A DNA stretch of 64,000 bases from Flavobacteriales bacterium (GCA_947447955.1 CANFLS010000002.1:9072-73071), one strand, 5' to 3'; counted from the stretch's first letter, positions 3-12,480 are shown. Notes: generated by a model not told the origin, from the letters alone. Numbers and translations: made by a program.

Positions 3-845
3 ATGATTCGAAAAGCACAAAGACAAAAAGCAAAAATTAAACTCGCCCTACAAGGATCTAGTGGTTCTGGAAAAACGTATTCCGCACTTCAAATAGCAAA
101 TGGTATGGCTGAATGGAATAAAATCTGTGTCATTGATACAGAAAACAATTCAGCTGATTTGTACTCACATTTAGGACCGTACAACGTGCTTACATTAAGC
201 AAACCTTTCACTCCTGAAAAGTACATTGAAGCCATCTCAGAATGCGAAAAATTAGAAATGGAAGTCATTATCATTGATTCCCTATCTCATGAATGGGATG
301 GAGATGGAGGGATTTTAGAAACACATTCAAATATGCCAGGTAATTCATTTACGAACTGGTCTAAATTGACTCCGCGACATAATGCCTGTGTTCAAAGAAT
401 CCTAAACGTAAATGCCCATGTAATCGCAACATTGAGAACCAAACAAGATTATGTCCTTACAGATAAAAATGGAAAGATGGTTCCTGAGAAAGTAGGTTTA
501 AAATCTATTACCCGTGATGGTATGGATTATGAGTTTACAATTGTGTTTGAAATAGATATCACGCATAAATGTGCTGCATCCAAAGATAGAACAGGAATAT
601 TTGTTCAGGATTTTCCATTTCAAGCTTCCAAGATAACAGGACAGCGAATTCTAAACTGGTGTGAAAGCGGAGATAAAACAATTGCTCAACAGATTGAAGA
701 ATGTACCGACGTACAATCCCTCAAAATTCTGTATTACGATTTGTCCCTATCTGAAAAGTCAATGTATCACAAGGATTTTTTAGCCCGTCAAATAGAACTT
801 AAACCAAAATTTGAAAGCAATGGAGCTAGCCACATTCATCAATGA
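3..845 (+). CDS. AAA_24/Sak4-like P-loop ATPase (phage/element recombination-associated ATP-binding protein). The start sits at the window edge and may be 5'-partial.
   Basis: Walker A 'GSSGSGKT' near the N-terminus, a Walker B-like 'VIIIDS' and RecA-like spacing. This is typical of phage AAA_24 ATPases and lies on the integrase-bearing element. Confidence 0.55.
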   Translation: MIRKAQRQKAKIKLALQGSSGSGKTYSALQIANGMAEWNKICVIDTENNSADLYSHLGPYNVLTLSKPFTPEKYIEAISECEKLEMEVIIIDSLSHEWDGDGGILETHSNMPGNSFTNWSKLTPRHNACVQRILNVNAHVIATLRTKQDYVLTDKNGKMVPEKVGLKSITRDGMDYEFTIVFEIDITHKCAASKDRTGIFVQDFPFQASKITGQRILNWCESGDKTIAQQIEECTDVQSLKILYYDLSLSEKSMYHKDFLARQIELKPKFESNGASHIHQ

Positions 846-1758
846 GAACATCGCAGAAGCGAGAGTTTCATCCGACAGCCGATTTATTCATGCGAATACA
901 AAATCTGTTTCATTAAACCACCTTAGAGACGATTGCGTAATACCAGTTTTTTCGAAGGACAATGAACCAACTATTAGCAATGCAGACTTCGTTGAAAGCG
1001 TTTATAATGCTGTTCAGAATGTATTTTGCACGGAGGACATTCTTTTGCCTTCTGTAAGGGTTTCTCATCCAATTAAGGGTAGAATTCCAGATGCAAAAGA
1101 TAAGGCAGCAGAAGAGCTCCTAGACGGCGAAAAAACGGTTTATTATGAACGGGTAATGTTCACTATTGAAATCCCTTCTATTTATCGTGTAATCAATGGC
1201 AATCACCTTACTTTGACTGTCGGTGGTGTTAGGGGTTATCACCTAGAAAACCTTTATTCTAAGCGTTCTTTACAGAAATTCAAGGTATTTGTTGGTTTCA
1301 GAAACAGGGTTTGTTGTAATATGTGCGTCAGTACCGATGGAATCTTGGATGATTTAAAAGTAGGTACGAGTTCTGAGCTTTCGGACACAACAGAAAATCT
1401 ACTTTTGAAGTACGAATCAGCAGAAACTTTGGCTCAATATTCTCATTGGGGAAGAACCAAACTTACCGAACAGCAATTTGCTGAATTCTTGGGAAGATGT
1501 AGAATGTTGAATTTTATGCCATCCATTGAAAAGAAGAAGCTGCCAGAATTATTGTTTACCGACCATCACTTAAATTTGGTTGCTGAGGGATATTTCAAAG
1601 ACCAACACTTCGGTAGAGAAAAAGACGGCAGCATTGACCTATGGAAACTTTACAACCTATTTACAAGTGCTAACAAATCAAGTTATATTGATCGATTCCT
1701 AGATAGAGGCGTAAATGCAGCCACAGTAATTTCTAATTTAGAAAGTTATTTATTCTGA
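811..1758 (+). CDS. DUF3871-like hypothetical protein. It is commonly paired with an AAA ATPase on Bacteroidota mobile elements.
   Basis: 315-aa ORF that overlaps the end of the ATPase gene. I recognise the family only loosely from memory of the ATPase+DUF3871 pairing. Confidence 0.35.
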   Translation: MKAMELATFINENIAEARVSSDSRFIHANTKSVSLNHLRDDCVIPVFSKDNEPTISNADFVESVYNAVQNVFCTEDILLPSVRVSHPIKGRIPDAKDKAAEELLDGEKTVYYERVMFTIEIPSIYRVINGNHLTLTVGGVRGYHLENLYSKRSLQKFKVFVGFRNRVCCNMCVSTDGILDDLKVGTSSELSDTTENLLLKYESAETLAQYSHWGRTKLTEQQFAEFLGRCRMLNFMPSIEKKKLPELLFTDHHLNLVAEGYFKDQHFGREKDGSIDLWKLYNLFTSANKSSYIDRFLDRGVNAATVISNLESYLF

Positions 1759-1788
1759 CTGTAGTTGCGTTGATTAACTTTTAATGTG

Positions 1789-1824
1789 AATCCCTCCAAT
1801 TTAATTGGGGGGATTTATTTTTAT
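1789..1824. terminator. Bidirectional hairpin terminator between convergent genes
   Basis: Imperfect inverted repeat 'aatccctccaa...ttggggggatt' followed by a T-rich run. It sits between the + gene ending at 1758 and the - gene ending at 1855. Confidence 0.4.
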
Positions 1825-1854
1825 ATTGAGCAATTCTAAATATTTTAAACCCTA

Positions 1855-2439
1855 TTATAAAATCAGCCAAGTCATCATAACAACCACATAAGCTCCAAAA
1901 CTAATCAAGCCAATTTTCTTGTTATGTTTTCCTACTTTTTCACGTTCAGCATTATTCATGGCAGCTTTACTTGCATCGTATTTGGGATTCGGAACTAAAT
2001 GCGAATAATTCACACCATAAGATTCCCATTTTGTTACTGTATCATTTGTAAACCAAAATTGAACATACGTTTCAATCGTTGAACTATTAACGGTTTGTCT
2101 ATTAACTTGATTTTGAGTTGTATTTAAAGCTCTATCCTGTGGTCTTAAATAAGGATTCAAGGGATCCTGATATATCCTTCCGACACCGCTTGAAAAGCCA
2201 ATACTTGTTGAGTTTGTTACTTCCGATAATTTGAAGTACCAATTTTCAATATTCTCAAAAGTTTCCTTTCTAGTCGGAGTACCATATTTTACAAATACAG
2301 ATTTTTTAGTTGGAAAATCCTCAGTCATAACCTCGTTGTGCGGTTTCATAATTGATTCCGATATAGTATACGGTGGAGGAACAACTGCACAAGAACTTAC
2401 CCAAATCACTACTAATAAAGCTAATAAATAATTTTTCAT
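1855..2439 (-). CDS. Hypothetical lipoprotein
   Basis: N-terminal signal peptide 'MKNYLLALLVVIWVSSC' with a lipobox Cys. No recognisable catalytic motif. Confidence 0.5.
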   Translation of the reverse strand: MKNYLLALLVVIWVSSCAVVPPPYTISESIMKPHNEVMTEDFPTKKSVFVKYGTPTRKETFENIENWYFKLSEVTNSTSIGFSSGVGRIYQDPLNPYLRPQDRALNTTQNQVNRQTVNSSTIETYVQFWFTNDTVTKWESYGVNYSHLVPNPKYDASKAAMNNAEREKVGKHNKKIGLISFGAYVVVMMTWLIL

Positions 2440-2504
2440 TATTGCAAATCTAAAGCATCAAACCTATTATTTGAAAAAAATCCATAAACTTTAATAACAC
2501 CATT

Positions 2505-2954
2505 ATGAAAAACCCAAACATACAAGAAATCAAACTCCATTATATTGCAAACACAAGCAATGAACCAATCACCATAAAAAGCTCACAGGAAGCGTTTAAG
2601 GCCTTCAAAAACATCTTTGATCAAAATACCTTAGCCGTTAGGGAAGAGTTCAATATAATCTATTTAAATAGGGCAAACAAAGTCATCGGAACCTACCAAG
2701 ATTTCAAAGGCGGAATTACAGGTGTAGCAGTCGATTTAAGGCTGATATTTGCTGTTGCTTTAAAATGCCTTGCTGTAACCATTATAGTGGCCCACAACCA
2801 TCCTACGAACAATTTAAAACCATCACAGGAAGATTTAGACATTACACAGAAACTTCATGATGTAGGAAAAATCCTCGACATCAAACTAATGGACCATCTG
2901 ATTCTAGGAACGGATAACAATTATGTGAGTTTTGTGCAGGAAGGGTGGATGTGA
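2505..2954 (+). CDS. radC: RadC-like JAB/MPN domain protein
   Basis: JAMM motif 'HNHP' plus a downstream 'D' in 'VAHNHPTNNLKPSQEDLDIT', in a 149-aa protein. This is typical of RadC proteins on mobile elements. Confidence 0.8.
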   Translation: MKNPNIQEIKLHYIANTSNEPITIKSSQEAFKAFKNIFDQNTLAVREEFNIIYLNRANKVIGTYQDFKGGITGVAVDLRLIFAVALKCLAVTIIVAHNHPTNNLKPSQEDLDITQKLHDVGKILDIKLMDHLILGTDNNYVSFVQEGWM

Positions 2955-3793: not shown

Positions 3794-4084
3794 TCAATCA
3801 GTCCTTTGTAACCACTCCAATCCTTTCATAGTCCAGCTTATAAGCAATTCACATTCTTCTGGAGACAACCCTTTTGTTCTGTTTATCTCAAACGTATCGA
3901 TAGATACATGAAAACCACCTAGACATTCTAAGTCCCAAATTACGTAAGTATTGCTTTCATCAAGATATGCATCTGCATTCAGAACTTGCTCATCTCTATT
4001 AAATTTACATATTAGAATCCTTTTGGATGGATCACGTGGTGCTAATGCATATTGAAAAGGCCCGTAAGAAATATAGTTATACAA
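3794..4084 (-). CDS. Small hypothetical protein, paralogue 1 of a tandem pair
   Basis: 96 aa. Its C-terminal half aligns with the neighbouring 100-aa protein: 'VIWDLECLGGFHVSIDTFEINRTKGLSPEECELLISWT' against 'VVWEVDEIGTYHVSLDNLDIDKTEGLFQEETELLQFWT'. Confidence 0.55.
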   Translation of the reverse strand: MYNYISYGPFQYALAPRDPSKRILICKFNRDEQVLNADAYLDESNTYVIWDLECLGGFHVSIDTFEINRTKGLSPEECELLISWTMKGLEWLQRTD

Positions 4085-4126
4085 AACTTGAGTTTTTTAA
4101 TTGAAGTTAATTGTTAAAACATGACA

Positions 4127-4429
4127 TCAGCCTTCTAACAAATGCATTCCATGGTGATTTGTCCAGAATTGGAGCAATTCAGTTTCTTCTTGAAATAAGC
4201 CTTCCGTTTTATCAATATCCAAATTGTCTAATGAAACGTGATAGGTTCCTATTTCATCAACTTCCCATACTACACACGTTTTACTAATATTAAGCGAACC
4301 TTCGGCAGTGATTCTTTGTTCTCCTCTGTGCAGAGTGCCAATTATTACTGTTTTCAAAGGGTCATAATCTGACCTAGGTGTTTCAACTGGAGGTTCAGCA
4401 ATTTTCAATTTGATGTCATTGGTGGTCAT
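4127..4429 (-). CDS. Small hypothetical protein, paralogue 2 of a tandem pair
   Basis: 100 aa, paralogous to 3794..4084. Immediately downstream of the caspase-like gene on the same strand. Confidence 0.55.
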   Translation of the reverse strand: MTTNDIKLKIAEPPVETPRSDYDPLKTVIIGTLHRGEQRITAEGSLNISKTCVVWEVDEIGTYHVSLDNLDIDKTEGLFQEETELLQFWTNHHGMHLLEG

Positions 4430-4485
4430 TTTGAGGGATTTTGTCTATGATTTTTATTAATTATTGAAACCTAAATGAGTATTTC

Positions 4486-5217
4486 TTAATTTAACTTAAA
4501 AAGCTTTGAAAATTCTTGTAAATTCAAGTTGCCCAAGATGTAATCACTCTTTTGAACAGCAAGTTCATCTTTATTTATTTCCTGAACAAATTGTTCAAAG
4601 CTAAATGCTGAATTTTCATTTAATTTTTCCATCAGGGATATGAAGAATTTTTGTGTACCATATCCTCCATGAAAATTTGTATAAGCGAAATTCTCAAGTT
4701 CAGTAACATAGTACATCATGTAAAATGAGTTCATGCAATTTAGGGTATTTTCCCATTGCACTCTATTCTGTTCCGATTTTCCAGGAAAAGAGTATTCTTT
4801 TCTTAAAACTTCAAACTTAGGCGAATTAGGTGCAGGGTTGTTTGACCTACAACAATCCATAAAAATCCATTGTTTCTTATTAGGCCTTATGAATTCAGAT
4901 TCATATATGCTCTGGCCATCCTTAAGAGGGATTTGAATTCTTCTATCCACAAAATTTGAATGTCCCGAAAAATATATAAACGTATAATCAGAAGCGTCTA
5001 TTAACTCAAATATTGCATCACGGGTAATGTCATTTGTTTTGCATGTTGAAATTTCATCATCATTAAAAGAACCACCTGAAGCGGAAGTCAAAAAACACTT
5101 AATAAGTCCCAAATCCGATTCGGATTTAAACTCTTCAGAAGCGTCTAAGCTATTATCATTACAAAGAAGAATTGCTTTTCTTGTGATTTTTTTATGTTCA
5201 TTCATGGGATTATGCAT
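4486..5217 (-). CDS. Caspase-like (peptidase C14 / CHAT-like fold) cysteine protease domain protein
   Basis: beta1-like 'KAILLCND'. Catalytic-His motif 'IYFSGHS'. Catalytic-Cys motif 'IFMDCCRS' about 46 residues later, which matches the caspase/metacaspase His-Cys dyad spacing. The start overlaps the upstream small gene by 8 nt. Confidence 0.6.
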   Translation of the reverse strand: MHNPMNEHKKITRKAILLCNDNSLDASEEFKSESDLGLIKCFLTSASGGSFNDDEISTCKTNDITRDAIFELIDASDYTFIYFSGHSNFVDRRIQIPLKDGQSIYESEFIRPNKKQWIFMDCCRSNNPAPNSPKFEVLRKEYSFPGKSEQNRVQWENTLNCMNSFYMMYYVTELENFAYTNFHGGYGTQKFFISLMEKLNENSAFSFEQFVQEINKDELAVQKSDYILGNLNLQEFSKLFKLN

Positions 5218-5512
5218 CTTTATTTGTCCTGAAAATTTCTATTGCTAAATTCCTTTTTTCATGGAAAACTGTTGGGTGTACATACTCGCATTTGCCATCT
5301 TTTTCTATCCGAAAATATTCTATATGACGATGTATTCCAGCACCATCATTCGAAACATCATCTGGGACTACAGCCAGGAGATATACAATTTCTTCTAATT
5401 CGTAGTAAATCACATTTAAACAACGTCTGCTACCCCACGACAAATAATCAATTATTTGAGTTTCAAGCCTTGCATTAAACTCATCAACTGTTATTTGCTG
5501 TTCATTGGTCAT
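5210..5512 (-). CDS. Small hypothetical protein (100 aa) in an operon with the caspase-like gene
   Basis: Overlaps the downstream caspase-like ORF, so translational coupling is likely. Its start ATG overlaps the stop of an upstream paralogue remnant (ATGA). Confidence 0.5.
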   Translation of the reverse strand: MTNEQQITVDEFNARLETQIIDYLSWGSRRCLNVIYYELEEIVYLLAVVPDDVSNDGAGIHRHIEYFRIEKDGKCEYVHPTVFHEKRNLAIEIFRTNKDA

Positions 5513-5652
5513 ATTGGTATTTTATTTTTAGGTATAAGCAATTTTGTCCAAAATTGAAGCATCTCTGATTCTTCTGACGACAAACCTTCCGTTTTATCAA
5601 CAATTAATTTATATTGGATATATTTTTCAACTACTTCAATTTGCCTAACTTT
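5509..5652 (-). pseudogene. C-terminal remnant of a third member of the small-protein paralogue family. It has no start codon.
   Basis: The minus-strand frame translates to '...KLIVDKTEGLSSEESEMLQFWTKLLIPKNKIPI*'. This matches the C-termini of the 3794..4084 and 4127..4429 proteins, and the nucleotide string 'ccttccgttttatcaa' is shared with 4127..4429. There is no ATG in frame after the upstream stop. Confidence 0.45.
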
Positions 5653-7097
5653 TTCATATTGTTATATGTCCATGAGTTTTGTTTAGACGCAAAAAGTTGA
5701 CGACCATTTTTTTTGTAAAACTCTTCACCTGTCAGTGGATCCCGAATTTTTACTGACCACAAATCATCTTTAAAAAGAAGGTGCTCAGTTAGACTTCTTA
5801 TTGCACCACCAGCAGTAGTAACATTATAAACCGAAACATATTGCTTTCCACGCCTCGTCACTTCTACCTTGTTTAGAACTGCGTTTTTTGAAAGAATATA
5901 CTCTTCGGCTTTTTTGTGTTTTTTAGTACGTTCATCTTCAATTGTATCAGACCATCTAAATCTACTATCTACAATTGGGAATTTAACATTCGCTGATATT
6001 TCGATACCTTTATTCTTCAATTCAGAAATAATGAAATTAACAGAATCTTCAAACCGAAGCAAACTGGGAATTTCAGGTACAACAATTAAATTCACCCCAT
6101 ATTGTTTACATTTTTCTATTTTAAGTTTGTCATCTTGCAACAATTTTTTAGTTCCTCTATGATACTTTTCTGAGTAATGTTGTTTACCATTATGTTCAAA
6201 AGCAATTTTTAAATGATCAGAAAACCCATCTAATTCTAGTCGATTTCCTTCATTATTTAGCAACCATGTAGGTCTAACTTTTAAAAACGGAACTTCGAAA
6301 ATTGATTCGAAAATAAATCTACAAACTCTTTCGCCGACACCAGCTGAACAATAGGGACACCAAATTGATTGACTTTTGATAGTGCTATATTTTGATTTAA
6401 ACTCATGTCCATCTTTACATTTCCAAACTTGCAACTCATATGGATTGTATGTTTCTGATAAAAACTTTCCGTTCCTTGTTTCGGCGAGTGAAATACAATC
6501 TGCAATTGTAACTTTCCCTTTACCACTGCATTTTGGGCAATTTTGTTTATGATTTTTAATATTGTTGTATGTCATTGTAAAAACATGACCTTTTTTATTG
6601 CATTTCCATTGTGCTTTTATAGTTGTTCTATTTGGAATTTGAAGAGATAACAATTCACAATCCACGTGAATACCCGCCATTACATAATCATCTCGTGAAA
6701 CTTTTGTTCGGTCTTTTTGCCAAAGCTCAGTTGATAGACAAATTTTACACCAACTACCTTTAGATAAAGATTGTCCATGAGGATAAAATATATGCCCCTC
6801 ACCACATTTTACCTTGTATTTTGTATGTTGATTGATATATTGCTCACTTAGGAATTCACCACCTTTTTGTTTGCAAATTTCCCGCATGTCATCTATTGTA
6901 ATTTTCTTTTGGCCAGCACAATTAGGACACCAACTTCCTCTTAATATAGAATCCGCAGTGGCAGACCAAATGTGACCATGTTCACATTCCCAATCATAAT
7001 GTGCTTTTACACCAGAATATTCACTACTAAGGCATTTACCCAATTTTTCATTTGCGGTAAAACGCAAGTCTGTTATAGTTTTCTTTGGGTTATTCAT
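5631..7097 (-). CDS. Multi-zinc-ribbon (DUF4379-like repeats) protein with a C-terminal Vsr/DUF559-like (restriction-endonuclease-fold) domain
   Basis: About five repeats of 'W.C..GH.W......G.WCP.C' in the N-terminal 250 aa. The C-terminal 'LELDGFSDHLKIAFEHNGKQHY' matches the DUF559/Vsr 'vDF....klaiEvDGgqH' pattern. Confidence 0.5.
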   Translation of the reverse strand: MNNPKKTITDLRFTANEKLGKCLSSEYSGVKAHYDWECEHGHIWSATADSILRGSWCPNCAGQKKITIDDMREICKQKGGEFLSEQYINQHTKYKVKCGEGHIFYPHGQSLSKGSWCKICLSTELWQKDRTKVSRDDYVMAGIHVDCELLSLQIPNRTTIKAQWKCNKKGHVFTMTYNNIKNHKQNCPKCSGKGKVTIADCISLAETRNGKFLSETYNPYELQVWKCKDGHEFKSKYSTIKSQSIWCPYCSAGVGERVCRFIFESIFEVPFLKVRPTWLLNNEGNRLELDGFSDHLKIAFEHNGKQHYSEKYHRGTKKLLQDDKLKIEKCKQYGVNLIVVPEIPSLLRFEDSVNFIISELKNKGIEISANVKFPIVDSRFRWSDTIEDERTKKHKKAEEYILSKNAVLNKVEVTRRGKQYVSVYNVTTAGGAIRSLTEHLLFKDDLWSVKIRDPLTGEEFYKKNGRQLFASKQNSWTYNNMKKLGKLK

Positions 7098-7192: not shown

Positions 7193-7232
7193 TTACAACA
7201 AAAAAAACTCCACTCATTGCTGGGTGGAGTTG
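7193..7232 (-). terminator. Rho-independent terminator downstream of the 7256..7861 gene
   Basis: Hairpin 'ctccactcattgctgggtggag' followed, on the minus strand, by a T-run. Confidence 0.45.
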
Positions 7233-7255: not shown

Positions 7256-7861
7256 CTAGAAAGAACATTCGGCATCGAATTTTTCTTGAAAATACTTTTT
7301 AGGATTACACAATAGCTTCTCACGCATTACCTCGAGGGTTTTATGACCGTGAATTCCAAAATACAGAACAGGTCCAATAAGCGAATTGTCTAATGGCACG
7401 ATTGCATCAAAAGGATTGTTAAATTCATCATTCCTACTAAATAGATTAAAAATCAGGTATGACAAGTTTAGGGATTTGTTGAGTTTGTTTAACTCTGCAA
7501 TTGCTTCTGCATCCAATACTACATCTTTATTTGGAGTTGGAAAATTAATTAATGGGTTTGTCAAATCTTTAAATTTTAGGCCAAATAGTTTACCTTGTTG
7601 CAATAGTTCAAAATTGATTTGCTTACCAAAATCGCCCCAAGTGTAACTACTCATTTCGATTACTGCGTCTTCGTAATCTTTGCGTGAATCAAATCCAAAA
7701 TTTCCATCTTGATGTTCACTTTTTGTTTTTTTAATTTTATCTATTATGTTCATGATATGTTTGCCTTTAGGCAATACAAAGATACAAAATGATAAAAAAA
7801 TTACCAGTAAAATGTATAAATATTTATCAACAGTTACGTTTACATTCAACCCATAAAACAA
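7256..7861 (-). CDS. Hypothetical membrane-anchored protein
   Basis: 201-aa ORF with a hydrophobic N-terminal segment 'YLYILLVIFLSFCIFVL'. Confidence 0.4.
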   Translation of the reverse strand: MFYGLNVNVTVDKYLYILLVIFLSFCIFVLPKGKHIMNIIDKIKKTKSEHQDGNFGFDSRKDYEDAVIEMSSYTWGDFGKQINFELLQQGKLFGLKFKDLTNPLINFPTPNKDVVLDAEAIAELNKLNKSLNLSYLIFNLFSRNDEFNNPFDAIVPLDNSLIGPVLYFGIHGHKTLEVMREKLLCNPKKYFQEKFDAECSF

Positions 7862-8059
7862 AGAAAAAGCAGGGCATTTAACAACCCTGCTTCAACTGGT
7901 TTAACGATTTTATTAGTAACGTATGGCTATTGCACTATCCTCTTTGATTGAAAGGATTTTTAATTTATTTAATTTGGCTGATAGGATACAAATGCATTGA
8001 ATTTCAAAACACATCACGCGACCTGTTTACAAATCTTTAATTTAACATATTTTATTAGA

Positions 8060-9775
8060 TTATATAGCATGTACCCTACCAAATTCATCTATCCTAAATA
8101 AATTCAAATCCTTAAAAATTTGCATCATCATTCGACTTTGTTTAGCATCTATATCATAATTATCCTGAAGAATCCATTCTAAATCCAAATAATAAACCTC
8201 TTCCTGTCTAAAAATACCAGGCCCTGTTTTGAAAAAATCTTCTGCAGCCAAATAGAAATTTTCGTCTTCACCATATACAGAACTACCAATCCTGTCATGT
8301 ATAAATTTTATAATTGGGTCAAGAACATATTCTGTTTCTGATTCAGGCAAAACCAAAATTTCAGGGTTGAAATCGAAACTACCTTCACCTTCTTTTCCTA
8401 GTAAATCTTGAGTGTTGAAGGTAACACGTTCATTTAATTTCAAAATTACATTTTCGCAATTTCCATTACTTCGGCGAAATCCTTCATTTGCCTGAGAGAT
8501 CTCTTTATTACCCTCACCTTCAAAATTCACTATGGTTTGAGGGCTGAAGGTTGAAGCATCTGGATTTTCTGCTGTATCAAATATATTTTCGTTACCATCA
8601 CCTTCAACTTTTTCTTGGGTATTTGGTGTGAAGGTTGTTTTTGTCTCAGCATTTATTTCCGAAGAATCTTTGGGGGCAAATTCATCAAGATAGTAAAGTC
8701 CTTTTACATTTTTAACTCTTTCTATTGTTGCCAAATCTCTTAAACGACGTTCGGCCGTTGTTAATGATACATTTAAAAAAGTTTTAATTTTTAGACACGT
8801 AGTTTTAAACGGAAAACCTTTATCTTTAAATATCATGAATAAATCGGACTCAGTTAATTCTTGTTTGCTTTTTTTAACGTTACTATTCATTGATTCCCAA
8901 TTACCCATAACATCAAAGGTTAATGTTTCCTCTTCAAACTCAACTGGGAGTCTATTTTCCTTGTAAAAGTTGGATGTATAATTTCCTTTGGCTACGTTAA
9001 AAAACTTTTGTCCACTTTCGTTTCTAGATAAATATAATGCATATCTAACTTTTTGGGTTAACCCACTACCGCCTTGTATTAATTCTTGAGATGGATTACT
9101 CTTGTATCCAGCTTTATTAACGTGATGAACAAAAAGAAGAGCCAATCTATGGGTTCTGACTAATTCATCAAACGCTTTGATGTCCCGCCTCATCTGAATA
9201 TTGCTGTTTGTATCGGAACCAGAAAATATATCTCCAAACGCATCTACAATAATTAGATCGACTGGATTTTCTTCACAGAATAAAGACAACTTCTTTATTA
9301 ATTCAGTGATTGTTTCATCGGTTAAAAAAGCCAAGCTAAGATTGTTTTTATCAAGATCTACATGTTTCAGCAATTGCTTGTTTAAACTGCTACTAACGGC
9401 ATCCTCTTGGTCTTCCGTAAAAACATAAAGAACCCGATTGTGAATCGGTTTTAATCTCTGGCCCAAATATTCGGTAGAGCCTTTTGCAATTGTTATAGCC
9501 AATTCTTTAGCTAGTTGAGATTTTCCCATATCAGGAGGTCCAACCAATAATCCTGTTCCTGTGCGAGGAATTAGGTTATCCCATAAGAAGTCCGTTTCTT
9601 TTCCATCAAAGGATGCCAAAAGTTCGGTAGCTGTGTAAACTAATAAGCTACTTTTAGTTTTAACAGCGGTTGTGATTGAACTAACGTTGGTTTGTTCGTG
9701 TGCTCCAGATGAATCTTTCCGATACTCTGAGCTTTTTATTAAATTACTCATAATTGAATGCAAAATTGGCAGCAT
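8060..9775 (-). CDS. AAA_25/RepA-like P-loop ATPase (primase-associated replicative helicase of integrative elements)
   Basis: Walker A 'GPPDMGKS' and Walker B 'LIIVDAF' in a RecA-like core, with a long C-terminal extension. It sits in the position typical of element replication modules, near the integrase and excisionase-like genes. Confidence 0.6.
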   Translation of the reverse strand: MLPILHSIMSNLIKSSEYRKDSSGAHEQTNVSSITTAVKTKSSLLVYTATELLASFDGKETDFLWDNLIPRTGTGLLVGPPDMGKSQLAKELAITIAKGSTEYLGQRLKPIHNRVLYVFTEDQEDAVSSSLNKQLLKHVDLDKNNLSLAFLTDETITELIKKLSLFCEENPVDLIIVDAFGDIFSGSDTNSNIQMRRDIKAFDELVRTHRLALLFVHHVNKAGYKSNPSQELIQGGSGLTQKVRYALYLSRNESGQKFFNVAKGNYTSNFYKENRLPVEFEEETLTFDVMGNWESMNSNVKKSKQELTESDLFMIFKDKGFPFKTTCLKIKTFLNVSLTTAERRLRDLATIERVKNVKGLYYLDEFAPKDSSEINAETKTTFTPNTQEKVEGDGNENIFDTAENPDASTFSPQTIVNFEGEGNKEISQANEGFRRSNGNCENVILKLNERVTFNTQDLLGKEGEGSFDFNPEILVLPESETEYVLDPIIKFIHDRIGSSVYGEDENFYLAAEDFFKTGPGIFRQEEVYYLDLEWILQDNYDIDAKQSRMMMQIFKDLNLFRIDEFGRVHAI

Positions 9776-9800
9776 TCAAGCACTTAACATTCACCCAATT

Positions 9801-10598
9801 TTAAGGTGAATTTTCACTATCGTATTGACTAATAGCATTATGAATGCTTTTTGTAAATTCTTTTAGACGCTCAAATCCTGCATTTTCTGTGTCGCTCATT
9901 ACTGAATTATCGATAGGATTACCTTTTACATCCAATTTCAAAGAAGGCTTTTGTCGTTTTTTAATTCTATTCCAAGCTGTGATAGTATCTTTATATGAGT
10001 TTTCGATATCTAACCTACCGTTATAAAAAAATCCACTTTTGAATATCAAATCTTTAAGGTTGGACATGTCTATTTCCTCCGTTTCTTTTTTAAACGCTCC
10101 AAACTCTTTCAAACTATACAAAACCATCAAAACCTCCCTGTAAGTCCACTTCCAGTTTATAAATTCAATATCTTCCGTAACAAATGGGTAAGCGACTAAA
10201 ATATGGTCAAATTTATTTTTTAAATTAATCCTTACATATTTTATCACATATTTTTTCTTATCTAATTTCAGTCGTTTATTTTCATTTATCAAATCGACAA
10301 GTTTTCTTTGGACCCATTCCAAAAACTTGGCTTTGTAATCCATTTCTGTATAAAATGCCAACTGCACACTTATAGAATTAATTAAAGTTTCCATTTGAGA
10401 TTGAATTATTTCATCCGCAAAATCATCGCCATCCTTCAAATTTTTTAACCATTGTGAAAATTCCTTTAGGGTTTTCTTAAAATCTGCAAATTCACCAGCA
10501 ACTGTTTGTGTCATATTCAAATATATAAAACATTCCCCCAAAACAAAAAAGGTGTCCTTACCAAGAACACCCTTTTCATCTAAAACCACAACCAACAA
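9801..10598 (-). CDS. Hypothetical protein (element-encoded)
   Basis: 265-aa ORF between the helicase and the HTH gene. No motif recognised. Confidence 0.4.
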   Translation of the reverse strand: MLVVVLDEKGVLGKDTFFVLGECFIYLNMTQTVAGEFADFKKTLKEFSQWLKNLKDGDDFADEIIQSQMETLINSISVQLAFYTEMDYKAKFLEWVQRKLVDLINENKRLKLDKKKYVIKYVRINLKNKFDHILVAYPFVTEDIEFINWKWTYREVLMVLYSLKEFGAFKKETEEIDMSNLKDLIFKSGFFYNGRLDIENSYKDTITAWNRIKKRQKPSLKLDVKGNPIDNSVMSDTENAGFERLKEFTKSIHNAISQYDSENSP

Positions 10599-10877
10599 CT
10601 ACGCACACTCCCTACACTTAACTTTATTCTTCTCCATTTGCTCGTAGACGGAGTTTATGTCGTAATAATACATATTACCATACAATGTGAATGTAAGAGC
10701 TCCATTGATCCTTAAATCGGTTAATTTGGTGGTTGAAATTTGAAGCAGTTCTTTGACTTCTGCTCCTTTTAACCATTGTCTGGGATTTCTCTCATTTTGT
10801 AACAAGTCTGTCATAGCTGCTATCATCTCTGCTTTGAACTTGCTGAAGTGTTCTTCAGTAACTAAATCTATTTTCAT
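10599..10877 (-). CDS. Helix-turn-helix DNA-binding protein (excisionase/Xis-like, HTH_17 type)
   Basis: 92 aa with a 'WLKGAEVKELLQISTTKLTDLRINGAL' HTH motif. It lies immediately upstream of the integrase, which is the usual Bacteroidota int-xis arrangement. Confidence 0.6.
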   Translation of the reverse strand: MKIDLVTEEHFSKFKAEMIAAMTDLLQNERNPRQWLKGAEVKELLQISTTKLTDLRINGALTFTLYGNMYYYDINSVYEQMEKNKVKCRECA

Positions 10878-10879
10878 GA

Positions 10880-12208
10880 TTAAATAATTTTTTGTAATTG
10901 TGGTGCTTGTTCAGAATCTTCATTCGAATTGTCTTCATCTGGCCATTGGGTAGTCAGTTCTCTCAGTTTTACCATTTCCCCCAATATTTTCTGATTCGTT
11001 ACCTTGGCGTAAATCTGCGTTGTTTTGATATCAGAATGACCAAGCATCTTACTTACGCTTTCCATAGATATTCCCTGAGTCAAAGTTATGGTAGTAGCAA
11101 ACGTATGTCGAGCCAAATGTGTAGTAAGCGTTTTGTTGATTCCACATATATCTCCAATTTCTTTTAAATATGCATTCATCTTTTGATTGCTCAACACTGG
11201 CAACACTTTTTTATCAATTTCTCTAGCAGGATGGCCATTGTACTTTTTAATAATTCTCAATGCTGCTGGTAAAAGTGGAACATTAACACCATTGCCAGTT
11301 TTTTTACGTGATGTATTAACCCATTGTTCCCCATCTATTCCCATGGAGATTTGATCTATGGTTAACATTTTAATGTCGATATACGCTAATCCCGTATAAC
11401 AGCAAAACACAAAAATGTCCTTTACCATTTCTAACCGTTCATTTGAAAAAACCTTTGCTTCCAATACGCTCAATTCTTCCATTGTTAAATAGCCCCTGTT
11501 AACCTCCCTGATTTTTCCCTTGTACTTTACATATGGGTCTTTGCTAATCATTTCAGTATTTAAAGCATATCCAATAACCGTTCTAAAGTACTTTACATAT
11601 TTAACGGCCGCATTATTGCCAATTCCTTTATCCGTTCGTAAGAAGTGCTCAAAATCCATCAAATTGGAAAATTTAAAGTCGTCGACTGCGACATCTTGAA
11701 CGTTCAACTTTTTGTTCAAGAAATCAAGCAAATGAACTTTTAGGGTGCAATATTTTCGATATGTTAAATGACTGTATTCAATACCTACCAAATCTTTTCT
11801 AATGGCAATAAACCTTTCAAAGATTTCCATAAGGGTAACTCGTTTTTCTGGAGTGCCTAAGTAATGCTTTTTAATGTCATAGACGCTAATTGCATTGCCA
11901 TTACCTACCAACATGGAATACACCTGATAGATGTTGTTGTTAATGTCTCCTAAGCAAGAATTGATGGTTTTAGATTGCTCTGATGAACCTCTTGCCCTTT
12001 TGTTAATTTCACACCATTTGTTAGCTTCAATTTTCAAACCAGTGCTCATTTCAACCCTTTGAGAGTTAAGTGTGATTCGGACGTAAATAATTACTTTTTC
12101 GTCATTCGATGTTCTTGTTTTGCGTGTTGTAAAAATAACGCTGAAAGAATTGTACATTTTTTTACTAATTATATCCATAAAGTTACTACATTTTGCTTCG
12201 AAAGTCAA
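10880..12208 (-). CDS. int: Tyrosine-type site-specific integrase
   Basis: C-terminal catalytic region 'HLARHTFATTITLTQGISMESVSKMLGHSDIKTTQIYAKV' carries the R..H..R..Y signature. An N-terminal Arm-type domain is present. It is adjacent to the tRNA-Asp 3' end. Confidence 0.9.
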   Translation of the reverse strand: MTFEAKCSNFMDIISKKMYNSFSVIFTTRKTRTSNDEKVIIYVRITLNSQRVEMSTGLKIEANKWCEINKRARGSSEQSKTINSCLGDINNNIYQVYSMLVGNGNAISVYDIKKHYLGTPEKRVTLMEIFERFIAIRKDLVGIEYSHLTYRKYCTLKVHLLDFLNKKLNVQDVAVDDFKFSNLMDFEHFLRTDKGIGNNAAVKYVKYFRTVIGYALNTEMISKDPYVKYKGKIREVNRGYLTMEELSVLEAKVFSNERLEMVKDIFVFCCYTGLAYIDIKMLTIDQISMGIDGEQWVNTSRKKTGNGVNVPLLPAALRIIKKYNGHPAREIDKKVLPVLSNQKMNAYLKEIGDICGINKTLTTHLARHTFATTITLTQGISMESVSKMLGHSDIKTTQIYAKVTNQKILGEMVKLRELTTQWPDEDNSNEDSEQAPQLQKII

Positions 12209-12340
12209 GTGAAGTTTTCAACACTATCAACAATATAGCAATAACTTAGAGCCATCCGAGGGAGTCTTTTTTCGCCTAATGACATGACTCCCGAATTGCT
12301 CCCCCTAATGAGCTAATTTTACGGGTATTTTAGATTCGAC

Positions 12341-12380
12341 TAAAAACAAAAAACCCCGTAAACACTAGATTTACGGGGCT
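12341..12380 (-). terminator. Rho-independent terminator downstream of tRNA-Asp
   Basis: Hairpin 'ccccgtaaacactagatttacgggg' followed, on the minus strand, by a T-run. Confidence 0.5.
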
Positions 12381-12403
12381 TAATGATTAAATAATAATTT
12401 TAG

Positions 12404-12480
12404 TGGCGGTCTGGACGGGACTCGAACCCGCGACCCCATGCGTGACAGGCATGTATTCTAACCAGCTGAACTACCAAACC
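12404..12480 (-). tRNA. tRNA-Asp (anticodon GUC)
   Basis: Reverse complement 'GGTTTGGTAGTTCAGCTGGTTAGAATACATGCCTGTCACGCATGGGGGTCGCGGGTTCGAGTCCCGTCCAGACCGCCA'. It folds as a cloverleaf with anticodon loop 'CTGTCAC' and is near-identical to E. coli tRNA-Asp. Confidence 0.9.

What the first reader, a model, noticed from the sequence alone, without database searches (positions are those of the whole stretch)
3794..7097. Element-borne operon: zinc-ribbon/Vsr-like nuclease, small protein, caspase-like protease, and tandem small paralogues. Candidate novel defence or abortive-infection system.
Five co-directional minus-strand genes sit on an integrase-bearing element, with short gaps and overlaps between them.
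- A 488-aa protein has about five treble-clef zinc-ribbon repeats ('W.C..GH.W......G.WCP.C') and a C-terminal DUF559/Vsr-like endonuclease fold ('LELDGF...KIAFEHNGKQH').
- A 100-aa protein follows, and its start is overlapped by the next gene.
- A 243-aa protein carries a caspase-type His-Cys dyad ('YFSGHS' ... 'FMDCCRS', about 46 residues apart) and a beta1-like 'KAILLCND'. It is only the bare protease domain, with no sensor or delivery domain.
- Two paralogous ~100-aa proteins follow.

A predicted nuclease and a caspase-like protease with no obvious targeting domains, on a PICI-like element, resembles known defence architectures (CHAT/caspase effectors, nuclease effectors). I do not recognise this exact combination as a described system. 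An alternative reading is a toxin with an immunity-paralogue array.
Basis: partly seen in the sequence, partly recalled or inferred. Interest (0 to 1): 0.78.

Follow-up and report, generated by a model that had tools for sequence, protein, structure and literature searches.

The report
Solo caspase-like protease in element cargo slot
The five genes are real, and the 243-aa protein is a genuine caspase-fold protease, but they are three independently moving modules in the cargo slot of a Bacteroidota mobile element rather than one five-gene defence system.

Summary
All five minus-strand ORFs exist. Four of them (B, C, D, E) are under purifying selection.

**What holds up**
- It has an invariant His86 and an Asp121-x-Cys123 motif.
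- The 488-aa protein has four DUF4379 zinc ribbons, not five, plus a conserved nuclease-like core. A Vsr/DUF559 fold could not be confirmed.

**What does not hold up: the five-gene system**
- The nuclease's 68-69% relatives lie elsewhere, without the other four genes. Its phage relatives are annotated as multicopy homing endonucleases.
- The tandem paralogues D and E are backbone genes. They mark the edge of a cargo slot in sister tRNA-Asp elements that carry restriction-modification (R-M) genes and no caspase.
- The 100-aa protein B accompanies the protease only in the >=77% clade. Caspase relatives at 42-60% identity lack B, D and E.
- A 70-nt relic of a third D copy lies between the nuclease gene and B, which points to cassette shuffling.

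**Most likely reading:** a stand-alone, probably Arg/Lys-specific caspase-like effector of a small Bacteroidota clade. It travels through defence islands, and B may regulate it in one lineage. A defence role rests on gene context only.

The parts
5631..7097 (-). Gene A, 488 aa, basic (pI 9.3). It has four DUF4379 treble-clef zinc ribbons and a conserved nuclease-like core. It is an independent module related to phage 'homing endonuclease' families.
   Evidence: Pfam DUF4379 E 1.6e-13. phrog_559 2.8e-38 and phrog_681 4.6e-24. tblastn matches 110 phage records, the best being multicopy Campylobacter-phage 'putative homing endonuclease' genes. Relatives at 68-69% identity in L030 and L031 lie in unrelated contexts.
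6348..6986 (-). The zinc-ribbon block of A: four C-x(1-4)-H...C-x2-C repeats at aa 38-60, 98-120, 166-190 and 227-250.
   Evidence: Regular-expression scan of the translation. Pfam reports three DUF4379 stretches.
6063..6332 (-). The nuclease-like core of A (aa ~256-345): ER.CR ... LELDG(F/Y) ... AFEHNGKQHY ... D..K ... IP. The motif is PD-(D/E)xK / Vsr-like, but the fold is not confirmed.
   Evidence: Alignment of 11 relatives gives invariant D41, E52, G55, Q57, H58, Y59, D74 and K77 in A7 numbering. There is no Pfam or PDB sequence hit.
5542..5612 (-). Relic of a third D-type gene (codons ~69-92, 'VDKTEGLSSEESEMLQFWTK'). It lies between A's stop codon and B's start codon.
   Evidence: tblastn of D gives E 9.9e-6 at 65% identity. 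The DNA alignment shows it is closest to the D genes of L014 and L012. Homology among the B upstream regions of the window, L009 and L017 begins only at about the ATG.
5210..5512 (-). Gene B, 100 aa, acidic (pI 5.0), with no known family. Its 3' end abuts or overlaps the start of C.
   Evidence: Only 5 clusters were found among 5.8 billion proteins. B lies upstream of C in the window, L009 and L017. dN/dS is 0.18-0.59. There are no Pfam, PHROG, NCBIfam, PADLOC or PDB hits. The AF2 model has pLDDT 48 and is unusable.
4486..5217 (-). Gene C, 243 aa, probably 239 aa from Met5 at position 5205. It is a minimal caspase/metacaspase-fold cysteine protease with no extra domain.
4960..4962 (-). Codon of His86 (YFSGH86S), the predicted catalytic histidine.
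   Evidence: Invariant in 16 relatives. The same Y.SGHG motif occurs in remote Peptidase_C14 relatives.
4849..4857 (-). Codons of Asp121-Cys122-Cys123 (FMDCCRS). Cys123 is the predicted nucleophile. Asp121 is at the position of the acidic S1 residue of metacaspases and MALT1.
   Evidence: Cys123 is at least 90% conserved. Remote Peptidase_C14 relatives read D-(C/A)-C-(R/S), so the second Cys is the constant one. The S1 inference is from recalled literature on metacaspases and MALT1.
4127..4429 (-). Gene D, 100 aa, acidic. It is a backbone gene marking the edge of the cargo slot in this element family.
   Evidence: 20 clusters at 57-95% identity. D is present after type I R-M in L012 and L013, and after the N6_Mtase cargo in L014-L016, with no B or C. 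dN/dS is 0.17-0.24.
3794..4084 (-). Gene E, 96 aa, TTG start. It is a paralogue of D (38% identity) and is also a backbone gene.
   Evidence: BLASTP E 1e-20. Conserved at 85-93% amino-acid identity in L009 and L014, where no caspase is present. dN/dS is 0.14-0.64.
7198..7230 (-). Terminator-like hairpin (ACTCCAC-N10-GTGGAGT followed by T9) after gene F. It separates F from A.
   Evidence: Read directly from the sequence. Its 10-nt loop exceeds the scanner's limit, so one search did not list it.
7256..7861 (-). Gene F (201-aa ORF, called as 172 aa). It is a backbone gene at the other edge of the cargo slot.
   Evidence: 55% identical to a 177-aa protein in L014-L016 that precedes their cargo.
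10880..12480 (-). Tyrosine integrase (10880-12208) and the adjacent tRNA-Asp (12404-12480). This is the element end and the probable attachment site.
   Evidence: Pfam Phage_integrase, SAM_5 and Arm-DNA-bind_5. ARAGORN tRNA-Asp. Sister elements have the same Peptidase_M1 flank.

Best explanation
The region is the cargo slot, between backbone genes F and D/E, of a tRNA-Asp-integrated element in a Bacteroidota MAG. It holds three independently assorting modules, not one system.

1. **Gene A** is a free-standing zinc-ribbon nuclease-like gene. Its family behaves like homing or selfish endonucleases in phages. It sits directly against a relic of a D-type gene.
2. **Genes B and C** form a tightly coupled pair. 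C is a minimal clan-CD (caspase/metacaspase/paracaspase-like) cysteine protease with His86 and Cys123. Asp121 lies two residues before the Cys, as in Arg/Lys-specific metacaspases and MALT1. C belongs to a small Bacteroidota-only clade that is usually a solo gene in defence-island-like neighbourhoods. I infer that it is an executioner-type protease: once activated during phage or MGE attack, it cleaves cellular or invader proteins after basic residues, as in abortive infection. I also infer that the acidic 100-aa B is a lineage-specific regulator, either an inhibitor/antitoxin or an adaptor, made in fixed ratio with C through translational coupling.
3. **Genes D and E** are paralogous acidic backbone proteins of the element family. 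They are unrelated to the caspase, and their function is unknown.

**Shown:** gene reality, the fold, the catalytic motifs, modular independence and slot context. **Inferred:** protease activity, P1 specificity, the defence role and the role of B.
For: **Fold and motifs**
- establish the fold and the catalytic motifs.
- The profile search links C to about 800 representatives of stand-alone Peptidase_C14 proteins of about 240 aa. These share FL.S..GG.(W/F), Y.SGHG and DCCR.

**Modular independence**
- A is absent from every other C, B, D or E locus. Its close relatives lie elsewhere.
- D and E occur with R-M cargo and without C.
- B is present only with the C sequences whose contigs reach far enough upstream: the window plus the two loci at 81% and 85% identity. 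It is absent next to C relatives at 42-60% identity.
- The D relic between A and B shows that rearrangement happened here.

**Slot context**
- Type I R-M fills the same F...D interval in L012 and L013, and the N6_Mtase cargo fills it in L014-L016.
- Distant C relatives lie near SNF2-Mrr, WYL, Endonuc_Holl pairs, HipA and an SF1 helicase.

**Precedent**
- Bacterial caspase-like proteases are known promiscuous Arg-specific executioners in type IV Thoeris and in the type III-B PCaspase pathway (bioRxiv 10.1101/2024.10.24.620036).
Against: - There is no functional data.
- No PADLOC model hits C.
- Defence-island association was judged by eye over about 12 contexts, not tested statistically. Two contexts (L007/L018 and L020) are largely housekeeping.
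- C homologues are absent from IMG/VR and the family is tiny: 16 clusters.
- A 53% relative of B occurs without C, so the B-C partnership may be incidental.
- Two family members (P0011, L023) lack Cys123 but keep Cys122, so the nucleophile assignment is not airtight.
- How a solo protease with no sensor domain is kept silent and then triggered is unexplained.
Confidence: 0.55

Rival explanations
1. One reading: A, B, C, D and E together form one novel defence or abortive-infection operon. Its nuclease and caspase effectors act jointly, and the small proteins act as regulators.
For: The genes are co-directional and closely spaced. No strong terminator was detected between A and E. All lie in a cargo slot.
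Against: - A co-occurs with C only in copies of this same element, L001-L005.
- Relatives of A in L030 and L031 lack B through E.
- L009 and L017 have B-C(-D-E) without A.
- L012 and L014 have D(/E) without A, B or C.
- A relic of a D gene between A and B shows that the juxtaposition is secondary.
Confidence: 0.04
2. B-C is a toxin-antitoxin-type addiction module that stabilises the element. C is a proteolytic toxin and B is its labile acidic antitoxin. It has no dedicated anti-phage role.
For: A small acidic gene sits directly upstream of, and overlaps, a larger enzyme gene. The pair is located on an MGE. Sister elements carry ParD/PIN modules. An orthocaspase interacting with a TA module has been reported (PMC7935541).
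Against: - Most C relatives are solo genes with no B, so C alone cannot be constitutively toxic.
- B has no recognisable DNA-binding or antitoxin domain.
- A 53% relative of B occurs without C.
Confidence: 0.15
3. C is a non-defence processing protease. It would mature or degrade specific host or element proteins, or act in stress-induced programmed cell death like cyanobacterial orthocaspases. It would merely be hitch-hiking in variable regions, and B would be unrelated.
For: Solo genes lie next to housekeeping genes in L007/L018 and L020. Remote Peptidase_C14 relatives sit in an SMEK_N / radical-SAM-SPASM / ABC operon that looks like peptide maturation.
Against: The distribution is patchy, mobile and low in copy number. 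C recurs next to R-M, WYL, Mrr, HipA and helicase genes. It occupies an MGE cargo slot otherwise used by R-M systems.
Confidence: 0.18
4. D and E are substrates, immunity proteins or antitoxin-like partners of the caspase.
For: D and E lie immediately downstream of C. They are acidic tandem paralogues. MaOC1 cleaving the antitoxin of a downstream TA module is a precedent (PMC7935541).
Against: D, or D+E, is conserved at the same backbone position in elements with no caspase, L012-L016. C relatives at 42-60% identity have no D or E.
Confidence: 0.05

Closest known systems
Metacaspases, paracaspase MALT1 and bacterial orthocaspases (Peptidase_C14, clan CD)
   Same: - His in 'SGH' after beta-3.
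- Cys in a 'D-x-C-(R/H)' motif. By recall, MALT1 has 'LDMCRK' and metacaspases have 'DSCHSG'.
- An acidic residue two positions before the Cys, which suggests a basic P1 preference.
   Different: - Only about 240 aa: no prodomain, no Ig/death/p10-linker insertions, no sensor or repeat domains.
- Only 11-18% identity to the solved structures.
- Pfam score sits right at the gathering threshold.
- The clade is restricted to Bacteroidota MAGs.
Type IV Thoeris caspase-like effector (Rousset et al., bioRxiv 10.1101/2024.10.24.620036; Science 2025) and type III-B CRISPR PCaspase
   Same: A short bacterial caspase-like protease in a defence context. The likely mode of action is the same: promiscuous cleavage after Arg as an executioner.
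   Different: - No TIR gene is adjacent; B has no TIR match and no TIR-like secondary structure.
- C has no C-terminal ligand-binding domain.
- There is no CRISPR or SAVED-CHAT neighbour.
- The PADLOC 'caspase' model does not hit C, although it weakly hits remote relatives.
Phage 'homing endonuclease' families phrog_559 and phrog_681 (DUF4379 zinc-ribbon endonucleases, e.g. the multicopy genes of Campylobacter phages)
   Same: Gene A aligns over aa 16-370 to phrog_559 (E 2.8e-38). It matches 110 phage records over its ribbons plus nuclease core. Like them it is free-standing and is found in varied contexts.
   Different: - A lies on a chromosomal integrative element rather than in a phage.
- It has an extra C-terminal region of about 100 aa of unknown function.
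- No homing, target site or nuclease activity has been demonstrated.
- The fold class (Vsr/PD-(D/E)xK versus the 'HNH' label in PHROGs) is unresolved.
Defence/cargo hot spots of integrative elements and phage satellites (concept recalled from the literature on P4-like satellites, PICIs and ICEs)
   Different: The element type is unresolved, because its far end lies outside the window. Slot occupancy was seen in only a handful of metagenomic loci.

Membership tests
Peptidase_C14 / clan CD caspase-like proteases (gene C) | Caspase-hemoglobinase alpha/beta fold | tested here: met
   [not shown]
Peptidase_C14 / clan CD caspase-like proteases (gene C) | Conserved His-Cys catalytic dyad in the canonical motifs | tested here: met
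   His86 is invariant and Cys123 is at least 90% conserved in 16 relatives. Bona fide Peptidase_C14 relatives carry the same Y.SGHG and D(C/A)C(R/S) motifs. Residue-level superposition on a solved active site was not possible, and two relatives lack Cys123.
Peptidase_C14 / clan CD caspase-like proteases (gene C) | Pfam PF00656 score above the gathering threshold | tested here: met
   21.5 bits against a cut-off of 21.4, which is marginal. 10 of 16 relatives match, best E 9.4e-6. Remote profile hits score E 1e-10 to 1e-18.
Peptidase_C14 / clan CD caspase-like proteases (gene C) | Proteolytic activity and P1 specificity | not testable with these tools
   This needs enzyme assays. The Arg/Lys preference is inferred only from Asp121 at position -2 of the Cys.
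Type IV Thoeris (TIR + caspase-like) | Adjacent TIR-domain signal-producing protein | tested here: not met
   No TIR hit in B, D, E, F or other neighbours, in Pfam, NCBIfam or PADLOC.
Type IV Thoeris (TIR + caspase-like) | Caspase with a C-terminal signal-binding domain, and a match to the Thoeris_IV caspase HMM | not testable with these tools
   C is about 240 aa and the protease fold takes up all of it. The DefenseFinder Thoeris_IV model is not in the PADLOC 2023 library used here. The PADLOC 'caspase' model gave no hit.
Gasdermin-protease and CHAT/Craspase/SAVED-CHAT systems | Neighbouring gasdermin, type III CRISPR, or SAVED/TPR-CHAT genes | tested here: not met
   None appears among the neighbours in the window or in 14 related loci.
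Type II toxin-antitoxin module (B-C) | Small upstream gene translationally coupled to a larger toxin gene, with conserved pairing | tested here: inconclusive
   The overlap or 4-nt spacing is present. However, pairing is confined to the closest clade: the loci examined have C at 81-100% identity. A relative of B also occurs without C.
DUF4379 treble-clef zinc-ribbon proteins (gene A) | Repeated C..H...C..C treble-clef units matching PF14311 | tested here: met
   E 1.6e-13 and 51 bits against a cut-off of 24.5. Four repeats were located.
Vsr / DUF559 PD-(D/E)xK endonucleases (gene A, C-terminal half) | Sequence or structural match to the Vsr/DUF559 fold | tested here: inconclusive
   No Pfam hit for aa 240-400 even at E 10. 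There was no PDB or Pfam hit with a profile, or with the members, of 11 relatives. The conserved D...E-H-N-G-K-Q-H...D..K pattern is compatible with the fold. No structure prediction was available for A.
Homing endonuclease genes (gene A) | Mobile, multicopy or variable-context gene inserted in or next to a conserved target gene that is intact in other genomes | tested here: inconclusive
   Phage relatives are multicopy and annotated as homing endonucleases. The contexts of close relatives differ. A abuts a truncated D-type gene that is intact in L012 and L014. Cleavage of the intact allele is untested.

The most novel reading that the evidence does not exclude
B-C, or C alone, is an undescribed minimal anti-phage abortive-infection module. 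It would be a domain-bare, Arg/Lys-specific caspase-like executioner of about 240 aa with no nucleotide-signal receptor, sensor or partner enzyme. It would be silenced or triggered through a new 100-aa acidic protein, or through direct sensing. It would be exchanged as a cassette in a cargo hot spot whose boundary genes (the D/E family) act as recombination anchors.
Probability: 0.25. Interest if true: 0.6.

Novelty: new variant of a known kind. Interest (0 to 1): 0.4.

Why it matters
Caspase-like proteases have recently been shown to be executioners in bacterial immunity, in type IV Thoeris, type III CRISPR PCaspase and gasdermin systems. In all of these an upstream sensor or signal activates the protease.

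A clade of bare caspase domains would raise the question of how such a protease is controlled without any sensor. Here the clade travels alone, or with only a 100-aa partner, through R-M-rich slots of Bacteroidota mobile elements. It could offer the simplest caspase-based immune module to study.

The locus also shows how element cargo slots are rebuilt. A relic of the boundary gene marks an old junction, and a selfish nuclease gene sits next to it.

If C proves to be only a housekeeping or stress protease, the finding is an ordinary accessory gene.

Tried and rejected
1. **Structure of B.** The AF2 model from 5 sequences had pLDDT 48 and pTM 0.36, so it was unusable and no fold search was run. 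My impression that B might be cystatin-like, from its helix plus beta-strands, is unsupported.
2. **Sequence searches of B and D/E.** Profiles searched against the PDB gave only chance-level hits with E > 0.3. Pfam, NCBIfam, PHROG and PADLOC gave nothing.
3. **Vsr/DUF559 test for A.** Pfam on sub-segments at E <= 10, the PDB with a profile of 11 sequences, and Pfam on all members all gave nothing.
4. **AFDB50 fold search.** The library was not available.
5. **TAG read-through.** The D relic is in frame with A after its TAG stop. I rejected read-through fusing A to the relic for three reasons:
   - TAG ends 6 of 37 long ORFs in the window.
   - Relatives of A end at the same place.
   - The frame match has a one-in-three chance.
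6. **B as a TIR domain (type IV Thoeris).** Rejected. B is too short, has no hit, and its predicted secondary structure starts with a helix.
7. **Phage origin of C.** There are no relatives in IMG/VR and no PHROG hit.
8. **Sigma-70 promoter scan.** It was uninformative: 19 sites found against 22 expected by chance, and Bacteroidota promoters are not covered by the scan.

Full report
**Observation**

The window has five co-directional minus-strand ORFs at the stated coordinates:
- A: 5631-7097, 488 aa
- B: 5210-5512, 100 aa
- C: 4486-5217, 243 aa
- D: 4127-4429, 100 aa
- E: 3794-4084, 96 aa, TTG start

Spacing and transcription signals:
- A-B: 118 nt.
- B-C: an 8-nt overlap, or a 4-nt gap if C starts at its fifth codon, which is where its relatives start.
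- C-D: 56 nt. D-E: 42 nt.
- A terminator-like hairpin (7198-7230) follows the upstream gene F, so any transcript starts at A at the earliest.

Evidence that B through E are real genes:
- Against orthologues in other contigs, their dN/dS is 0.14-0.64.
- Public gene callers miss E, but it is conserved at about 90% nucleotide identity, TTG start included.
- D and E are paralogues (38% identity, E 1e-20), and B is unrelated to them.

- A has four zinc-ribbon repeats, not about five.
- His and Cys in C are 37 residues apart, not about 46.

**The protease (gene C)**

- C reaches Pfam Peptidase_C14 only at the threshold: 21.5 bits against 21.4. Ten of its 16 database relatives also match.
- An AlphaFold2 model built from those 16 sequences is confident, with pLDDT 81.7 and pTM 0.86.
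- Foldseek agrees, with probability 1.00.
- His86 (YFSGHS) is invariant and Cys123 (FMDCCRS) is nearly so.
- A profile search of 1.84 billion representatives finds only 10 proteins at E <= 1e-30 but 812 at E <= 1e-3. The more remote ones are stand-alone proteins of about 240 aa that match Peptidase_C14 at E 1e-10 to 1e-18. They share FL.S..GG.(W/F), Y.SGHG and D(C/A)C(R/S). This identifies the second Cys as the constant one.
- Asp121 lies two residues before the Cys. From what I recall of those structures, this position corresponds to the acidic S1 residue of metacaspases and MALT1. I therefore infer specificity for Arg or Lys at P1.
- The whole protein is taken up by the protease fold. There is no sensor, prodomain or ligand-binding domain.

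**The nuclease-like protein (gene A)**

- DUF4379 treble-clef ribbons are confirmed (E 1.6e-13).
- A aligns over aa 16-370 to phrog_559 (E 2.8e-38) and to phrog_681, both annotated as endonucleases.
- tblastn finds 110 phage records. The best are multicopy 'putative homing endonuclease' genes of Campylobacter phages.
- The core ER.CR...LELDG(F/Y)...AFEHNGKQHY...D..K is strongly conserved in 11 relatives. It looks PD-(D/E)xK / Vsr-like.
- Neither Pfam nor PDB sequence searches support that assignment, so the fold class remains open.

**Is it one system? No.**

I compared 30 related loci from metagenomes and MAGs.

- **A.** It accompanies C only in copies of this very element (L001-L005). Its 68-69% relatives (L030, L031) sit in other contexts with no B, C, D or E, and they end at the same C-terminal position.
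- **D and E.**
  - They occur at the same backbone position in sister elements. Those elements share the integrase (87% identity), the Xis-like gene, F, RadC, DUF3871 and AAA_24. L014 and L015 also share the Peptidase_M1 flank.
  - The sister elements carry other cargo in the F...D interval: type I R-M plus a 237-aa HExxH protein in L012 and L013, and an N6_Mtase with two further genes in L014-L016. They have no caspase.
- **B-C.**
  - In L009 the order is HsdR / 237-aa HExxH / B / C / D / E.
  - B has only five clusters in 5.8 billion proteins.
  - C relatives at 42-60% identity have no B, D or E. Their neighbours vary: SNF2-Mrr, WYL, pairs of Endonuc_Holl genes, HipA, an SF1 helicase, and sometimes housekeeping genes.
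  - A 53% relative of B occurs without C.

The F...D interval is therefore a cargo slot. In the window it contains two separate arrivals, A and B-C.

**A relic of rearrangement**

- Between A's stop and B's start lie about 70 nt (5542-5612) that encode 'VDKTEGLSSEESEMLQFWTK'. This corresponds to codons ~69-92 of a D-type gene and is closest to the D alleles of L014 and L012.
- Homology among the B upstream regions of the window, L009 and L017 starts only at about the ATG.
- So a D-type gene once stood here. It was truncated on one side by the arrival or junction of A, and on the other by the B-C cassette.
- This fits D acting as a recombination anchor. It also fits A, which is homing-endonuclease-like, having landed in or beside it.
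- The relic is in frame with A after A's TAG stop. Read-through is unlikely because TAG is a normal stop here and relatives of A end at the same place.

**Mechanism, and how sure**

- **Shown:** the fold, the motifs, purifying selection, modular independence and slot context.
- **Inferred:**
  - C is an active clan-CD protease that prefers basic P1 residues.
  - It acts as an executioner in abortive infection. This follows the experimentally characterised type IV Thoeris caspase and the type III-B PCaspase, both promiscuous proteases reported or suggested to cut after Arg (10.1101/2024.10.24.620036).
  - B, which is acidic and translationally coupled to C, is a clade-specific regulator.
- **Weak points:**
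  - Most relatives are solo genes, so the protease must be self-restrained. Possible mechanisms are a zymogen state, control of dimerisation, or ion dependence as in metacaspases. The trigger is unknown.
  - The AF2 model of B failed (pLDDT 48).
- **Rivals:** a TA-type addiction module, a non-defence processing or stress protease, or D/E as substrates. The presence of D/E without C disfavours the last of these.
- **Confidence:** about 0.85 that the five genes are not one system, about 0.45 that C is a defence effector.

**Comparison with known systems and novelty**

- C is a member of Peptidase_C14 / clan CD: fold, dyad and threshold are all met.
- It is not type IV Thoeris, because there is no TIR gene and no receptor domain.
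- It is not a gasdermin, CHAT or CRISPR-linked protease, because it has none of those neighbours.
- No PADLOC model matches any of the five proteins.
- A belongs with the DUF4379 phage endonuclease families.
- The most that can be claimed is a new, minimal variant of the known caspase-like effector theme, carried in an MGE cargo slot. The five-gene 'system' as proposed is not real.
- Interest is moderate at 0.4. The protease clade and its control are worth an experiment, but the evidence for function is contextual only.

Noticed in passing
window 5542-5612 (-): A relic of a third D-type gene (about 23 codons, roughly 92-95% nucleotide identity to the D allele of L014). It is wedged between the stop of A and the start of B, and is in frame with A after A's TAG stop. 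It marks an old junction in the cargo slot.
   Followed up: yes
window 12404-12480 (-) and 10880-12208 (-): tRNA-Asp (GTC) lies about 200 nt beyond the integrase gene, so it is the probable attachment site of the element. The element's other end lies beyond position 1 of the window, so the att repeats could not be sought.
   Followed up: partly
[not shown]
   Followed up: partly
L008 6340-7379; L019 928-2012; L021 321-1439: Tandem pairs of Endonuc_Holl (PF10107) genes of about 172 aa each lie within 1-2 kb of distant caspase relatives in three loci. A WYL regulator accompanies them in L008 and L021. This may be a separate, uncharacterised island module.
   Followed up: no
L025-L028 1-8203: A remote 243-aa Peptidase_C14 relative (P0051) sits in a conserved eight-gene operon. 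The operon has SMEK_N, a radical-SAM/SPASM enzyme and an 887-aa ABC-type protein. This is a different setting, looking like peptide maturation or conflict, for the same minimal caspase architecture.
   Followed up: no
L029 2935-4878: Two paralogous Peptidase_C14 genes of about 245 aa are separated by a 151-aa gene, downstream of a DUF4276 gene.
   Followed up: no
L030 4559-5677: Two genes downstream of a 68% relative of A is a 372-aa protein. Its C-terminus carries a related motif (FDVYLP...VAIEYQGEQHY...D..K). It aligned with the nuclease core of A in alignment A7, so nuclease-like genes cluster there.
   Followed up: partly
window 3-2954 and 7256-10877: The element backbone is shared with the sister loci. 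It comprises AAA_24 (phrog_1366), DUF3871, RadC/JAB, an AAA_25 primase/helicase-like 571-aa protein and a 92-aa Xis-like HTH protein. Other genes between these backbone genes differ from locus to locus (G244 and H194 here), so the element has several variable slots.
   Followed up: partly
window 7866-7893 (-) and 7198-7230 (-): Two terminator-like hairpins bracket gene F. F is therefore probably transcribed apart from both the replication genes and the cargo.
   Followed up: no
P0049, P0052 (remote relatives): Some remote stand-alone Peptidase_C14 relatives end in a hydrophobic, transmembrane-like tail. Membrane-anchored variants of the minimal caspase may therefore exist.
   Followed up: no
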